A stretch of 64,000 nucleotides of DNA from Catajapyx aquilonaris (taxonomy: Eukaryota), in assembly GCA_000934665.2 (NCBI GenBank), contig JYFJ02001517.1, forward strand, positions 1-64,000, in the 5' to 3' direction. This document shows, in pieces, positions 31,591 through 44,483 of the stretch; the first letter of the stretch is position 1; each line of letters starts with the position of its first letter. The notes below the pieces were generated by a model. It searched no databases and was not told where the DNA came from. It was given only the letters and a program-made list of their open reading frames with translations. The translations under genes were made by a program, and so were the position numbers.

Positions 31591-33248
31591 GGTCATCGGG
31601 AAATTCGTATGATGCGCGAGGGGGCTCAATCATACCATTTATGTAGCTATCAGAAGGCCATTAATAAATTGCGGAGTGTCTGTTTAGGAGTCAGATTTCG
31701 ACAAGAAGCAACGGGCACTTTGCTTATATTTTAGTGCAGGTGACCCTTTTTGCTCAGACGATCCATATTTCAGTTGGTAATGGGTGTAGTGGATATAGCA
31801 GGGGAAGGCCAATTTCCTCTTGCTCTGTTAGTACTGTATTACATCATTTCAGTGGGCACAGTAATTCCTACGAATCTGCGCAGACATTTTCATAATACAT
31901 TATTGGACCGCTTATTCGTCACTGCATAGGAGTGTTTAATACTAAACAAAACTGAAAGTTTAATTAATCTACCCACATAAGAACAACTCCCTACAGAACA
32001 AAATGTACGCTAGGCTACTTGAAACCCTTGCTATTTCAATACATTACTGTAGTAATTATTTTTTGTAAGAATGTCAGAAAAAAATGATGGGGTTCTAATA
32101 CTTCTAAATGAGAAATGAGAGGCCCATGCACGATTTTACTAATTTCTTTCGGAAGAAACGGCAAAATGGTATAAAAATGTAATGTTCGTATACAACGTGA
32201 TGCAAACAAGAAAGGACTTCGATTTTCTTTTTGATGGCCTTGGGCCGTGGGCGATCGCCAAAGTGCGTACACAAGTAACTGAAGTGCGTATGCAAGTATA
32301 ATTGAAAATAGGGCGGCAAGAGCTCATCCTTACTCCAGCCCTGCACGTGGTTGTTGCATAGTTCATGTTTATAACATATTAATTCCTTTCTTGTCATTCT
32401 AGCAACAGGTTCTACCATTCAGCGCAGGTCATATATGCACAACGTACGTGGATCAAAATTGACTATTATATGATTGTCATGTTCTTGAATATAATTTTAT
32501 GCCATTGAAAGGGAGCACGCGCTACTGCATTGGCGGTAAAATAACTCGAAACATTACCGCGCAATTTGCGTAGAAGTCTATACTGTACACAAATGCGCAG
32601 AAATTGTCTAATTGCGCTCATCAGCCGTAATGTCAATACTGTGTAGTAAACACGTAAACGCTATCGGCTATCCCTGGTTACGCATGAAAAGCCACCAGTT
32701 TCAACATTCGCGCGGAAGACGGCGCAAGACTATGGAAAAATAGACCATGACGTATCTCCTTATGACTCATCGTAAAATTCACTCTGGTTGCTCGCAAAAA
32801 AACAGGAAGAGCATAAACCTTATTTCCCACCCTGTCCCTGTCCCCTCCCCCCGCCTCTCCCCATCCCCCCCTCCCTTCATGCAATGAGCAATGTTGCCAG
32901 GAGCACGGAACATTTCCGGACAAGGTCAATACTCCAAAAACGTGTACCGGATGAACTCCCCCGCGGACTGGCCGACCTCAACCAGCCGCAACCGCAGGCC
33001 CCAAAAATGGCCCTGTCCAACTTATGCCCAACAGCGAAAAAAAAAGAGAGAGAAAAAAAATTCATTGGCATCCCTACAAGGGAACCCGGAAGCGAAACAA
33101 ACCCGCGTTTCCCTGACCCAGACAAAGGGGGCGTGGACCACGGGCGGCCCACCTCCCATTTTCTTTTATAAACCGAATTAAAATGATTAATGAATCGGTG
33201 TCAACGGGAGTGATCAGGCGACGGAATGGACGGGATTGGCCTGCAGAC

Positions 33249-33270
33249 TGATTGATTGATTGATTGATTG
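33249..33270 (+). repeat. (TGAT)n microsatellite upstream of the mRpL53 ATG
   Basis: tgattgattgattgattgattg. Confidence 0.8.
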
Positions 33271-33344
33271 GGGGTGCGTGTGTGTGCGTATGGTGGCCTC
33301 CCGCAGACGCAGAAGGAGCAGAGGAAAGGGCGCAGTAACGTGCC

Positions 33345-35777
33345 ATGTCGATCCCGTTCTCTGGGACGGTCACTCGCTCGGCGGGTCTGGTCAGTGCCAT
33401 TGCCAAGCAGCTGAAGACTTTCACGCTCAAGCCAGTCAACAAGGCATTATTCAAGTTCGACCCCTTCCACCACAGCATCGATTCCATCAGGTTTGTGTGT
33501 ACAGCACTTTGCAACGCATGGAATGGAATGGACTTGGCATAAGTGCAGTTGAACTGTGGGGTAAACATATACCGTAGTACCTCATGTAAAGTGGCATGCC
33601 GGTGTATTCGAGGTTGACAAGTTTTTTAGAAATGCACGATCTGGTGGCTGTTCCAGCTTGCCGGTCTAAGCGAGGTGTGCCGGTATATGGCGAGGTTTTC
33701 ATAAGCACAGGCTTGGCACAGGATTATCACGATCTCTCTGAAAACTATTGTTACTCAAATGAATGCATTGCGCCATGTTCTACGGTGTGGATACAGCCCA
33801 GAACACTTCTATTGCCTGACATGTCCCATAAGATCATTCGTTAAGTTCTTTCATTGCAACCTTTTCAATGAAAAGTGCAAGGCTACAAGAAGGTAAGCAT
33901 ACCTACCAGGATATTTCATACGTTGGATTTGGATTTTATTATCTGAGAAACGCTACGTCTCATACATATTGACACCACTACACAGTGATCCTTTGATTGC
34001 CAATGAGATCTGTGACCAGCGAACTATTGAGTAAAATGAAGGACCGAAGGAGTTCGCCTTACTGTGTATGGGATTGGTGACACTCTATGCCCTGTGCAAT
34101 AGATGAACTTGCACATTCTCACAGCCCTGTATGCCTGTGCTCACACATTTTTCACACTAACATTAATTTAGTACCGTAGTATACCAGATGCATTCCGGAA
34201 AAGGATCAAAATTATAGAAATCTATCTCAAGTATTGTGGCATCCAGCCACCCCCAGGTTATGCCAGCATGCTGGTCAACCTCGTTTTATACTGGCATGCC
34301 ACTTTAAGTGAGATAATATGGTACAACCATGGAGTCAACCCTGGCTTCAACCCTGAACTAACTTTTAAAAATCCATTATGTAGCCCGATGTAGCCTATAC
34401 CCACCGAAACCATGTGCTATGTATTATGGGGCGTCATTTTCTTACAGGCAGTTCCAGTGGCAGATATCGTGCTCGAGGGTTAGAGACACAAACCCAAACT
34501 GCACGTTTAAGACCGACATTGCCTGTGATCGATCGGAGCCTACAGTTACCTTTAGCCTTGGTGAGTAGCCTGTTGATGATAATGGTGGGGGGAATTTGTT
34601 CATCTTCACTAGTTGGACACTCACTAGGCCAATCCAAGCATGTGTGACATTCACTTGTGAGCATTCCTGTACACACAGAGTTACACTCATTGGTAGATGG
34701 GAATGTTTTGTGTATTGCTAACATTTTGAGTGATTTACTGTGGACATGGTTTGTCAAGCGAAGTTCATGATTATCTAAGATGGTCCGTTTCTTCTCCATT
34801 TTTAAACGTTCCGACTTACCTCATCACCTCCTCTCATATCGTATGCCTGGCAGTGTGCTTCCATTGTTAGGGACCACAAAATGTAGTTGCATTTTAACTA
34901 ATACAATTTCTTTTGGACTCCAAACAAGGCCCAGTGCCACTGGAGAATGTCGATTCTGTTCATGTAATACTCTGAACGTTACAATAATCATACCTTCACC
35001 TTCCTCGAAATCAGGCCAAACACTGTCAGGGATGAAAATTCCTGGAAAAGCAGACATCTTTACACGGTGCACATGGACTTGTAATATTTTCCTTTCTAGG
35101 TACCTGCTACCACGTCAGTCTTTCTATCTGTGCCACCAAAAATAGTTTGCCTGACAATGAATGACGCAGGCCAGAACTAATAAATATCAGAATGTTTCAA
35201 TACAGATTCCATTGCTATCTAAGTGTACGGGGGCACAATTTGTATAGTGTAGCAGAGCTGTTTATAAAGGACTCTTGCCACACACACTATATTAGTAATA
35301 CTGTATGACTATCAATTATTTTGAACTTGGAATGGAAATACATGTGAAGGAGATCACTCCAAGTAGCTGCTGCTCTTTTGCTGTAGTGGAGACAGTTAAG
35401 CCCTGCCCACTCGCGTAGGAGTAAAGGCTATGTTTAACCCTGCCTTCACTTATTAAGCCTAATAAAATCATGATATGTCTGGTATGAAACAAACTAATAT
35501 TATGATGCCTAAGCACTGTTACATAATTTACCTGAAGGTGGTTCCCAGTGTTAGCCCTGGAGAAATGTCACCCTGATCTATACAAAATTCACATGTTTCC
35601 AATTTCATTGCAGAAAATGGTAAGACAATAAACTTTGAGACCAGTCACCTGACAGCATTGGAGATCCTCCAGCACTACAACCGCATAATTCAGCCGTTCC
35701 TTCCACCTCCAGAGGAGGCCCCCCTAGTCCAGACCAAAGCCACAAAGGCATCTGCTGTCAGGCGGAAGAAGCGCTGA
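33345..35777 (+). CDS. mRpL53: Mitochondrial large-subunit ribosomal protein mL53, 140 aa
   Basis: Exons 33345-33490, 34448-34560 and 35614-35777 (423 nt, phases join). The protein MSIPFSGTVTRSAGLVSAIAKQLK...FKFDPFH...DTNPNCTFKTDIACDRSEPTVTF...FETSHLTALEILQ...RRKKR* matches arthropod mL53 motifs (FDPF, TNPxC, CDRSEP, LTxLE). Confidence 0.9.
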
Positions 35778-35785
35778 ATTCAAGT

Positions 35786-35971
35786 ATGAAGAAAGTGAAG
35801 GATCGCAATGGGGCACTGACCCTCTTCAACACCCTCTATGCCCAGGTCCCTGAGTTTACAGAGGTATTCGATGAGGAGACCTGGTATATATTTGTTGCTT
35901 GTTTCACTGCTGCCACCATCATTGTTGTGTTTATCTTGTCCAGGTTTGTAGTACTGAAGCCTGTGGAATGA
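35786..35971 (+). CDS. 61-aa single-pass membrane microprotein (resembles Drosophila CG33155-type small protein), second cistron of the mRpL53 transcript
   Basis: MKKVKDRNGALTLFNTLYAQVPEFTEVFDEETWYIFVACFTAATIIVVFILSRFVVLKPVE*. The ATG has A at -3 and lies 8 nt after the mRpL53 TGA. One TM helix is present, and AATAAA occurs only after this ORF. The family resemblance is from memory. Confidence 0.75.
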   Translation: MKKVKDRNGALTLFNTLYAQVPEFTEVFDEETWYIFVACFTAATIIVVFILSRFVVLKPVE

Positions 35972-35992
35972 GATTCCCTGCCTGTGCCTGTT

Positions 35993-35998
35993 AATAAA
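35993..35998 (+). terminator. Polyadenylation signal for the mRpL53/microprotein transcript
   Basis: AATAAA about 20 nt after the microprotein stop, followed by a U-rich tract (tccttttgttattttttc). Confidence 0.7.
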
Positions 35999-36063
35999 AC
36001 TTATAGCTGCCACCAACTTATCCTTTTGTTATTTTTTCTAATGCCACCAAACCATTTAAAAAA

Positions 36064-44483
<8,420 letters not shown>

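What the first reader, a model, noticed from the sequence alone, without database searches (positions are those of the whole stretch)
35614..35998. Apparent dicistronic mRNA: mRpL53 followed 8 nt later by a 61-aa membrane microprotein
Seen: the last mRpL53 exon ends ...AAG CGC TGA attcaagt ATG AAG AAA. The second ORF is in a different frame, so it is not a readthrough product. It has A at -3 and encodes an acidic FTEVFDEETWY motif, one TM helix and a C-terminal LKPVE. There is no room for a promoter or polyA site between the ORFs, and the only AATAAA follows ORF2. Recalled, to be verified: Drosophila mRpL53 is annotated as dicistronic with the small gene CG33155. Inference: this is a conserved animal operon-like unit translated by termination-reinitiation or leaky scanning. 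It would couple an uncharacterised membrane microprotein to a mitoribosomal subunit and suggests a mitochondrial inner-membrane role.
Basis: partly seen in the sequence, partly recalled or inferred. Interest (0 to 1): 0.8.

Follow-up and report, generated by a model that had tools for sequence, protein, structure and literature searches.

The report
Conserved mRpL53 plus microprotein two-gene mRNA
The last exon of a mitochondrial ribosomal protein gene also carries, 8 bases after its stop codon, a conserved 61-residue membrane protein gene; the same pair is already listed as one two-gene messenger in fruit flies, so this is a real but largely known arrangement.

Summary
mRpL53 (three exons, 140 aa) ends at TGA 35775-35777. 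Eight bases later, in another frame, a 61-aa ORF starts (35786-35971), followed by AATAAA at 35993.

ORF2 is the orthologue of Drosophila CG33155 (45% identity, E 2e-21). FlyBase's list of polycistronic genes gives mRpL53 and CG33155 as a dicistronic pair with "8 nt bet. stop/start" (PMC4528330 File S1).

- A spliced RNA-type contig runs from exon 1 across the mRpL53 stop and 47 nt into ORF2.
- mRpL53 lies directly upstream of the ORF2 homologue in 17 of 27 related metagenome loci. Spacers range from a 4-nt overlap to about 145 nt, or 345-420 nt in ant-like loci.
- ORF2 is under purifying selection.
- The family has no Pfam model and reaches tardigrades, rotifers and molluscs.

The mRpL53 coding region is poor in AUGs, and ORF2's AUG always has a strong context. 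This favours leaky scanning, which remains untested. A mitochondrial role is not supported.

The parts
33205..33344 (+). Leader covered by the spliced contig; the true transcription start is unknown. It holds two upstream ATGs (33226, 33290) that matter only if the main start lies upstream of them.
   Evidence: contig piece 33205-33487; sequence
33345..33490 (+). mRpL53 exon 1, coding part (ATG at 33345; context gtgccATGt)
   Evidence: joint 33490>34448 GT..AG; tblastn/HMM to relatives
34448..34560 (+). mRpL53 exon 2
   Evidence: Pfam MRP_L53 partial hit E 7.9e-5, 23.1 bits (cut-off 25.3); joints
35614..35777 (+). mRpL53 exon 3 coding part, ending in a basic tail and TGA (35775-35777)
   Evidence: spliced product of 140 aa is 47% identical over 122 aa to P0162 (E 3e-41)
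35617..35631 (+). The only ATG between the mRpL53 start and the ORF2 start; it opens a 4-codon mini-ORF ending 154 nt before the ORF2 ATG
35627..35632 (+). AATAAA hexamer inside the mRpL53 coding exon, read through by the spliced contig
35778..35785 (+). 8-nt spacer (attcaagt) between the mRpL53 stop and the ORF2 start
   Evidence: the same distance is listed for the fly pair
35786..35971 (+). ORF2, 61 aa plus stop: orthologue of Drosophila CG33155
35855..35887 (+). Conserved acidic juxtamembrane motif (residues 24-34; family consensus P-x-F-T-D-I-F-D-E-E-T-F-Y)
   Evidence: alignment A1, (P22, F24, F28 invariant; D26, D29, E30, Y34, R53 at least 90%)
35885..35941 (+). Single hydrophobic helix (residues 34-52), followed by only 9 residues
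35993..35998 (+). AATAAA, 22 nt after the ORF2 stop; likely shared poly(A) signal

Best explanation
This is the orthologue, in another arthropod, of the fly dicistronic locus mRpL53-CG33155. One spliced transcript carries the whole mRpL53 reading frame and, in the same last exon 8 nt after its stop, a second gene for a 61-aa single-pass membrane microprotein. One poly(A) signal follows both. (Shown: gene order, homology, splicing, and a contig across the junction.)

The pairing is old and has been kept in many arthropod lineages while the spacer drifted from a 4-nt overlap to more than 100 nt. (Shown in related loci.)

Inferred: ORF2 is translated from the two-gene mRNA mainly by leaky scanning. 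Some 40S subunits pass the mRpL53 AUG, which always has T at +4 and often a weak -3. They then cross a coding region almost free of AUGs and start at the ORF2 AUG, which always has A at -3 and a purine at +4.

The microprotein's function is unknown. By its charge pattern, its acidic motif most likely faces the non-cytosolic side of a membrane. This is a weak inference.
For: Anatomy.

Splicing and junction: one 618-nt contig (depth 69.5, 0 mismatches) was laid as 33205-33487 | 34445-34559 | 35613-35832 with two GT..AG joints. It covers the mRpL53 stop, the spacer and 47 nt of ORF2.

Identity of the two genes:
- The upstream ORF is mRpL53: Pfam partial hit, and 42-47% identity to mL53-annotated models, E 1e-22 to 3e-41.
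- ORF2 matches CG33155: P0168 is Dmel_CG33155, with 45% identity over 58 aa, E 2e-21.
- The fly annotation lists the pair as dicistronic, '8 nt bet. stop/start', with mRpL53 'di/polycistronic only' (PMC4528330 File S1). An RNAi-line footnote places both genes in one locus (PMC4185420).

Linkage elsewhere:
- mRpL53 lies upstream on the same strand in 17 of 27 loci (tblastn; HMM).
- Six loci with introns keep the mRpL53 tail and ORF2 in one exon.
- L007 is an intron-less contig with leader, both ORFs 7 nt apart, a 3' UTR, AATAAA and 13 terminal A's.
- Three fused gene models or transcript ORFs (louse, mayfly, marine plankton) hold both parts.

ORF2 is coding: 19 synonymous against 1 non-synonymous difference for L007-L013, 13 against 5 for L001-L004, and dN/dS 0.10 for L011-L020.

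Leaky-scanning signs:
- AUGs between the two starts number 1, 3, 1, 4, 3, 3, 3 in 7 units, against 5.4-8.8 expected from base composition and 4-15 in an equal length downstream.
- The window's mRpL53 has no internal Met.
- The ORF2 AUG has A at -3 and a purine at +4 in 8 of 8 units. The mRpL53 AUG has T at +4 in 8 of 8 and a pyrimidine at -3 in 3 of 8.
- Leaders of relatives are 12-86 nt, with one uAUG among 9.
Against: The contig stops at 35832, so no single record here spans the whole of ORF2. The tool itself warns that a contig across two genes does not prove one transcript.

The run's kind is not on record and no RNA run was listed.

The fly annotation gives CG33155 an additional monocistronic transcript from an alternative promoter. 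ORF2 may therefore be made mostly from its own mRNA.

AUG poverty is not significant once amino-acid and codon composition are kept. Codon-shuffle P is 0.02-0.57 and only L005 falls below 0.05. L002/L003 and L007/L013 are close relatives, so there are about 5-6 independent units.

The window's mRpL53 AUG has G at -3, an adequate context.

If transcription starts at or before 33205, two upstream AUGs precede the mRpL53 start. One of them opens a 108-codon overlapping frame (my reading).

No expression, footprint or peptide data for this species were available.
Confidence: 0.7

Rival explanations
1. Termination-reinitiation: ribosomes that finish mRpL53 stay on the mRNA and restart at the ORF2 AUG 8 nt downstream.
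For: Stop-start distances are very short in many loci: a 4-nt ATGA overlap in L002/L003, 2 nt in L012 and L013, 4 nt in L006, 7 nt in L007, and 8 nt in the window and the fly.
Against: The upstream ORF is 135-164 codons long. By general knowledge of eukaryotic translation (not tested here), restart after such long ORFs needs special elements. The calicivirus-type motif UGGGA (recalled) is present within 100 nt of the stop in only 1 of 13 units. Other loci have spacers of 75-145 nt, so tight coupling is not conserved. Reinitiation alone does not explain the AUG-poor upstream ORF.
Confidence: 0.15
2. ORF2 protein comes mainly from a separate monocistronic mRNA started at an internal promoter (intron 2 or exon 3). 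On the long mRNA, ORF2 is then only a passenger in the mRpL53 3' UTR.
For: [quoted passage not shown] Ant-like loci have 345-420 nt between the genes, enough room for a promoter. A low-depth contig (2.4) lies inside intron 2 at 34891-35138.
Against: In the window and in six intron-bearing loci, ORF2 shares its exon with the mRpL53 stop at 2-75 nt. Any such promoter would therefore sit inside mRpL53 itself. The linkage has been kept across lineages that are saturated at synonymous sites. The ORF2 AUG context and the AUG-poor upstream ORF are unexpected if the long mRNA were irrelevant.
Confidence: 0.25
3. The two frames are joined into one mL53-microprotein fusion by frameshifting, readthrough or alternative splicing.
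For: There are three fused models: Pediculus P0123 (176 aa), Cloeon P0156 (175 aa) and the transcript-derived P0162 (189 aa). In the window, the ORF2 frame is open for 49 codons upstream of its ATG.
Against: The relative frame of the two ORFs differs among loci (0, 1 or 2), and stops separate them when they are in frame. I saw no canonical slippery heptamer in the window's mRpL53 tail (own reading). RefSeq gives Cloeon a separate 60-aa protein (P0150). The fused models drop the mL53 basic tail, as a predictor-made intron would.
Confidence: 0.05
4. ORF2 is a chance open frame in the mRpL53 3' UTR.
For: It is short and has no Pfam family.
Against: There are 47 representative homologues and 217 profile hits from insects to molluscs. 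The motif has invariant residues and dN/dS is 0.01-0.10 in close pairs. The fly orthologue has ribosome footprints: RPKM 33.8, coverage 0.64.
Confidence: 0.01

Closest known systems
Drosophila melanogaster dicistronic locus mRpL53 (CG30481) - CG33155 (FlyBase; File S1 of Crosby et al. 2015, PMC4528330; supplement rows seen)
   Same: Same two genes in the same order on the same strand, with the same 8-nt stop-to-start distance. The downstream protein is 60 aa against 61 aa here, 45% identical.
   Different: Different arthropod lineage; this gene has two introns in mRpL53. Whether this species also has the fly's alternative monocistronic CG33155 transcript is unknown. I could not fetch the fly DNA, so the spacer sequences were not compared.
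Drosophila sloth1-sloth2 bicistronic mRNA, translated by leaky scanning (PMC9681215; passages read)
   Same: Two ORFs a few nt apart (5 nt there). The upstream start is weaker and the downstream start has an optimal A-rich context. The downstream product is a small membrane peptide.
   Different: There both ORFs are short paralogous smORFs with shown mitochondrial function and reporter evidence. Here the upstream ORF is a 140-codon unrelated ribosomal protein, and nothing was tested at the bench.
Viral termination-reinitiation (calicivirus TURBS, influenza B M1/BM2 overlap); recalled, no paper read
   Same: A short or overlapping stop-start after a long upstream ORF (ATGA in L002/L003).
   Different: No conserved UGGGA-type element (1 of 13), and the spacer is not conserved in length.
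Conserved bicistronic nuclear loci of green algae, read by leaky scanning (PMC11892635; only the search listing and abstract start seen)
   Same: Anciently conserved two-ORF nuclear mRNAs with proposed leaky scanning.
   Different: Different kingdom and gene pairs. No shared sequence was examined.
Mocs2 - CG42503 (molybdopterin synthase subunits), named as a highly conserved dicistronic example in PMC4528330 (passage read)
   Same: A dicistronic pair conserved far beyond Drosophila.
   Different: Those two products are subunits of one enzyme. No functional link between mL53 and the microprotein is known.

Membership tests
Orthologue of the fly mRpL53-CG33155 dicistronic pair | Upstream ORF is mitochondrial ribosomal protein mL53 | tested here: met
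   Exon 2 hits Pfam MRP_L53 at E 7.9e-5. The spliced product is 42-47% identical to mL53-annotated models whose own Pfam scores pass the cut-off.
Orthologue of the fly mRpL53-CG33155 dicistronic pair | Downstream ORF is homologous to CG33155 | tested here: met
   P0168 carries the name Dmel_CG33155. BLASTP gives 45% identity over 58 aa, E 2e-21.
Orthologue of the fly mRpL53-CG33155 dicistronic pair | Same strand, no room for a promoter or poly(A) site between stop and start | tested here: met
   8 nt; the fly has 8 nt.
Orthologue of the fly mRpL53-CG33155 dicistronic pair | A mature mRNA that holds both complete ORFs | tested here: inconclusive
   The spliced contig crosses the junction but ends 47 nt into ORF2. 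A complete polyadenylated two-ORF contig exists for a relative, L007.
Orthologue of the fly mRpL53-CG33155 dicistronic pair | Downstream ORF is translated | not testable with these tools
   Only fly data exist: Poly-Ribo-Seq RPKM 33.8, TE 0.88, limited FLAG signal, no peptide (PMC4359375 Table 3).
Leaky-scanning bicistronic mRNA (sloth1/2 type) | Few or no AUGs between the two start codons | tested here: met
   One AUG in 432 nt, opening a 4-codon ORF. Relatives have 1-4, against 5.4-8.8 expected by base composition. The difference is not significant against codon shuffles.
Leaky-scanning bicistronic mRNA (sloth1/2 type) | Weaker context at the first AUG than at the second | tested here: inconclusive
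   ORF2 has A at -3 and a purine at +4 in 8 of 8 units. mRpL53 has T at +4 in 8 of 8, but a purine at -3 in 5 of 8, including the window (G).
Leaky-scanning bicistronic mRNA (sloth1/2 type) | Downstream output rises when the upstream AUG is weakened | not testable with these tools
   Needs reporter assays.
TURBS-type termination-reinitiation | Conserved 18S-complementary motif (UGGGA, recalled) upstream of the stop-start site | tested here: not met
   Found in 1 of 13 units within 100 nt of the stop.
Pfam SMIM5_18_22 (PF15831) / SMIM6 | Match to the family profile | tested here: not met
   No Pfam hit for ORF2 at E<=1, nor PF15831 in 38 members at E<=0.01. Atlas feature score is only 0.76-0.78, below the 0.9 lead level.
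Tail-anchored membrane proteins | Single hydrophobic helix within about 30 residues of the C-terminus and no signal peptide | tested here: met
   The helix is residues 34-52 of 61. Across the family, 171 of 224 motif-bearing proteins have 15 or fewer residues after the helix, but 42 have more than 30. The insertion route and orientation are not testable here.

The most novel reading that the evidence does not exclude
The pairing may be kept because the microprotein works with mL53 or with mitochondrial translation, for example as a membrane-side partner made in step with the mitoribosome. In that case an arthropod-wide, uncharacterised microprotein family with no Pfam model would be a missing mitochondrial factor. 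A milder version is that the locus is a natural, long-conserved case of leaky scanning across a full-length 140-codon ORF that has been kept AUG-poor for that purpose.
Probability: 0.12. Interest if true: 0.6.

Novelty: new member of a known kind. Interest (0 to 1): 0.3.

Why it matters
The pair itself is already in FlyBase, so the locus is not a discovery. It also adds that the downstream gene belongs to a strongly conserved, unnamed microprotein family of at least 217 profile hits, reaching tardigrades, rotifers and molluscs. The upstream coding region carries sequence signs of being kept passable for scanning ribosomes.

This makes the pair a convenient natural model for asking how a ribosome reaches a second ORF behind a full-length first one. 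It also flags CG33155 as a conserved gene worth a clean knock-out. Existing fly RNAi and transposon alleles hit both genes.

Tried and rejected
- Sequencing runs: no RNA holder was listed. The one run is of unrecorded kind and holds 0.49 of the words.
- In that run nothing was laid on 35833-36300. The tool says a hole proves nothing, so I draw no conclusion from it.
- Pfam: no family for ORF2. The two SLC52 hits and one DUF4446 hit among 38 members look like chance matches to the helix.
- PDB by sequence: no chain matched the family profile (best E 0.79) or CG33155 (best E 1.1). No solved complex is known to contain it. An 18-residue likeness to the yeast Doa1 C-terminus (E 0.8) was treated as chance.
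- ESM Atlas: arthropod 'hypothetical' clusters scored 0.90-0.94. SMIM6/SMIM5_18_22 scored only 0.76-0.78 and was rejected as unsupported.
- The TURBS motif was rejected.
- Frameshift or readthrough fusion was rejected because the relative frames vary.
- The search for related loci with the 38-sequence alignment failed because no stretch was conserved enough. It was repeated with 11 sequences.
- The whole genome of the window is not held, so paralogues of ORF2 or mRpL53 could not be sought.
- Earlier-findings look-ups by place (near) and by sequence gave nothing.
- Literature: 'mRpL53'+'dicistronic' gave 1 paper, with the terms unconnected in it. 'mRpL53'+'bicistronic' gave 5 and 'mRpL53'+'polycistronic' gave 4, none about this pair by title or abstract start. 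'CG33155' gave 4 and 'CG30481' gave 1. I found no paper on conservation of this pair outside Drosophila.
- Supplements: file 1 of the PMC4528330 supplements was not searchable. Only 3 small text files of the PMC4359375 supplements were held, with no hit.
- Complex prediction and structure prediction were not run. I make no binding claim, and a 61-aa single helix would give no informative fold.
Full report
**1. Observation.**
- A last exon begins at 35614 after a ...tcattgcag acceptor.
- It encodes the C-terminal 54 codons of a protein ending ...RRKKR, with TGA at 35775-35777.
- The spacer attcaagt follows (35778-35785).
- An ATG at 35786 then opens a 61-codon frame ending at 35969-35971.
- The two frames differ.
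- AATAAA lies at 35993.
A second AATAAA sits at 35627, inside the mRpL53 coding part of the same exon.

**2. Gene model and RNA evidence.**
Reading upstream, I placed exon 1 (CDS 33345-33490) and exon 2 (34448-34560). The spliced product is 140 aa.
- Only one public run held the stretch. Its kind is not on record and it holds 0.49 of the sampled words.
- Its contigs, laid on 33100-36300, include one 618-nt record of depth 69.5 with no mismatch.
- That record covers 33205-33487, 34445-34559 and 35613-35832, with two GT..AG joints that fit my exon borders after the tool's stated cut shifts.
- The contig must therefore derive from spliced RNA. It runs over the mRpL53 stop, the spacer and the first 47 nt of ORF2.
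- It ends at 35832 and nothing was laid further on, so the full ORF2 is not shown on one record. The tool also warns that a contig across two genes does not prove a single transcript.

**3. Identity of the upstream gene.**
- Exon 2 alone hits Pfam MRP_L53 (E 7.9e-5, 23.1 bits, just under the 25.3 cut-off). The domain is split by intron 1.
- The spliced protein is 47% identical over 122 aa to P0162 (E 3e-41).
- It is 42% identical to a Cloeon model named mL53 (E 6e-31) and 43% to a Pediculus model named mitochondrial L53 (E 1e-22).
- All three of those pass the Pfam cut-off themselves.

**4. Identity of ORF2.**
- A word-indexed search found one relative.
- A full HMMER scan of 1.84 billion representatives found 47 at E<=0.001.
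- A profile of 38 of them found 217 (best 120 listed).
- Named members are insects of many orders, two tardigrades, a rotifer, a snail and a mussel. All are called uncharacterised or hypothetical.
- The alignment has invariant P22, F24 and F28, with D26, D29, E30, Y34 and R53 conserved in at least 90%.
- Its core reads P-x-F-T-D-I-F-D-E-E-T-F-Y, followed by a hydrophobic helix and S-R-F/Y-x-x-L-K.
- No Pfam family covers it (the precomputed column is '-').
- A search from the Eurosta member brought in P0168. Its cluster carries the name 'Dmel_CG33155, isoform D'.
- ORF2 and CG33155 are 45% identical over 58 aa, E 2e-21.

**5. What is already known.**
- File S1 of Crosby et al. 2015 (PMC4528330, supplement rows seen) lists mRpL53 (FBgn0050481) and CG33155 (FBgn0053155) under one location, 2R:13954195..13955664.
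- There the two proteins are marked 'unrelated', with '8 nt bet. stop/start'.
- mRpL53 is marked 'di/polycistronic only'. [quoted passage not shown]
- The main text (passages read) counts 159 dicistronic pairs in the fly and leaves the mode of downstream initiation open.
- Aspden et al. 2014 (PMC4359375, Table 3 read) tagged CG33155. It is 60 aa, with footprint RPKM 33.8, coverage 0.64 and TE 0.88. It has no peptide evidence, and its FLAG signal was scored 'Limited' while six other smORFs were scored 'Mitochondrial'.
- An RNAi line against CG33155 is footnoted as overlapping mRpL53 in the same locus (PMC4185420).
- Transib1 insertions in CG33155 are candidate recessive lethals, without a clean knock-out (PMC12974806, passages).

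**6. Conservation of the linkage.**
A scan of metagenome contigs with an 11-sequence alignment gave 27 loci.
- mRpL53 lies upstream on the same strand in 17 of them: L001-L013, L016 and L018-L020. This was shown by tblastn with the window's spliced protein and by an HMM built from relatives.
- Of the other ten, three (L014, L015, L017) have ORF2 starting 23-295 nt from a contig end. They are near-identical to L016 and cannot be judged.
- The other seven (L021-L027, 28-50% identity, with C-terminal tails like the mollusc proteins) have 214-3477 nt upstream and no mRpL53 hit at E<=1.
- Stop-to-start distances are:
  - a 4-nt ATGA overlap in L002/L003
  - 2 nt in L012 and L013
  - 4 nt in L006
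  - 7 nt in L007
  - 11 or 14 nt in L019
  - 12 nt in L005
  - 32 nt in L008
  - 75 nt in L009
  - 81 or 99 nt in L020
  - 95 nt in L010
  - 122 nt in L018
  - 145 nt in L011
  - 345-420 nt in the ant-like L001, L004 and L016
.
- In the ant-like loci a gtaa...cag pair suggests an intron in the spacer. This is my reading and is not tested.
- Ten loci carry mRpL53 as one uninterrupted ORF across both intron positions of the window, as cDNA would.
- L007 ends in AATAAA, then 20 nt, then 13 A's.
- Six loci (L006, L008, L009, L012, L016, L019) have introns. Five of these share the window's intron before residue 87. All six keep the mRpL53 tail and ORF2 in one exon or continuous stretch.
- Three fused models (louse, mayfly, a marine transcript ORF) also place the two parts together.

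**7. ORF2 is under purifying selection.**
- L007-L013 show 19 synonymous against 1 non-synonymous differences (dN/dS 0.01).
- L001-L004 show 13 against 5 (dN/dS 0.08).
- L011-L020 give dN/dS 0.10.
- Comparisons with the window are saturated at synonymous sites.

**8. How ORF2 may be reached.**
In the window's spliced mRNA, only one ATG lies between the two starts. It is at 35617 and opens a 4-codon frame. The mRpL53 protein has no internal Met.
- Over seven units (window, L002, L005, L007, L010, L013, L018; L003 duplicates L002, and L007 and L013 are close kin) the counts are 1, 3, 1, 4, 3, 3, 3.
- Base-composition shuffles give 5.4-8.8. An equal length downstream of the ORF2 AUG holds 4-15.
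- Against shuffles that keep the codons, the deficit is weak (P 0.02-0.57). It therefore resides mostly in low Met content and composition.
- The ORF2 AUG has A at -3 and A or G at +4 in 8 of 8 units.
- The mRpL53 AUG has T at +4 in 8 of 8 and T at -3 in 3 of 8. The window has G at -3.
- The one conserved internal Met codon has a pyrimidine at -3 in 5 of 7 loci.
- Other internal AUGs open frames of 1-25 codons that end more than 120 nt before ORF2.
- Leaders in relatives are 12-86 nt with one uAUG among nine.
- The pattern resembles sloth1-sloth2, where reporters support leaky scanning (PMC9681215).
- A calicivirus-type UGGGA motif (recalled) occurs in 1 of 13 units.
- The relative frames of the two ORFs vary, which speaks against programmed frameshifting or readthrough.
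I rank the mechanisms as follows: leaky scanning first, a separate ORF2 mRNA second, and reinitiation third. None was tested directly.

**9. The microprotein.**
- The helix is residues 34-52 and only 9 residues follow it.
- In 224 motif-bearing family proteins, the 15 residues before the helix carry a mean net charge of -3.8 and the 15 after carry +0.45. The pattern 'negative before, non-negative after' holds in 187 of 224.
- By the positive-inside rule (general knowledge), the acidic motif would face the non-cytosolic side.
- The roughly 240-aa relatives with an N-terminal hydrophobic segment before the motif fit that orientation.
- The short tail, however, would equally fit a tail-anchored protein with the opposite orientation.
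- No solved structure contains a relative.
- Function is unknown and a mitochondrial location is not supported by the one fly test.

**10. Verdict.**
The locus is real, conserved and coding, but it is a rediscovery of an annotated fly dicistronic pair in another arthropod. Earlier notes of this scan on other pieces of the same genome report several further two-gene units of this type (unchecked by me). That fits a genome in which such pairs are common.

Noticed in passing
P0162 (189 aa, marine transcript-derived ORF), P0123 (Pediculus), P0156 (Cloeon); compare L005:353-540: Three records join the mL53 body directly to the microprotein and omit the basic mL53 tail, the stop and (in two) the ORF2 Met. 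In P0162 and P0123 the junction follows the same conserved P-x-E-E stretch. This could be a predictor artefact or a real alternatively spliced fusion isoform.
   Followed up: partly
P0123 and P0156, precomputed Pfam column: Both carry PF26962.1 beside PF10780.15. PF26962 is not in the local Pfam copy and is absent from all stand-alone microproteins, so what it covers is unknown.
   Followed up: no
window 35740-35785 and the same place in 13 units: The mRpL53 basic tail (Lys/Arg codons) makes the 30 nt before the ORF2 AUG purine- and A-rich in most loci. This gives ORF2 an A-rich approach as a by-product of coding.
   Followed up: no
window 33226-33255 and 33290 onward: There are two upstream ATGs inside the stretch covered by the spliced contig. 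One opens a 9-codon uORF. The other opens a 108-codon frame overlapping the mRpL53 start and ending at 35629-35631. They matter only if the main transcription start lies upstream of them.
   Followed up: no
window 36064-37027, minus strand: A convergent gene with laminin-G-like ORFs ends about 70 nt beyond the shared poly(A) signal, so the two 3' ends are tightly packed. The laminin-G likeness is my own reading of the translations and was not tested.
   Followed up: no
window 34891-35138 (intron 2): A 248-nt contig of depth 2.4 with no mismatch lies inside intron 2 in the same run. It could be pre-mRNA, DNA carry-over or an alternative first exon for ORF2.
   Followed up: no
P0044, P0059-P0067 and similar (about 225-243 aa): A subgroup of the family has an N-terminal hydrophobic segment, the conserved motif and helix in the middle, and a long acidic C-terminal tail. 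The organisms are unnamed.
   Followed up: no
Family profile against PDB: The motif region aligns weakly (E 0.8) with the last 18 residues of the yeast Doa1 constructs 3gae and 3l3f (...P-R-F-K-D-I-F-D-D). This is probably chance.
   Followed up: no
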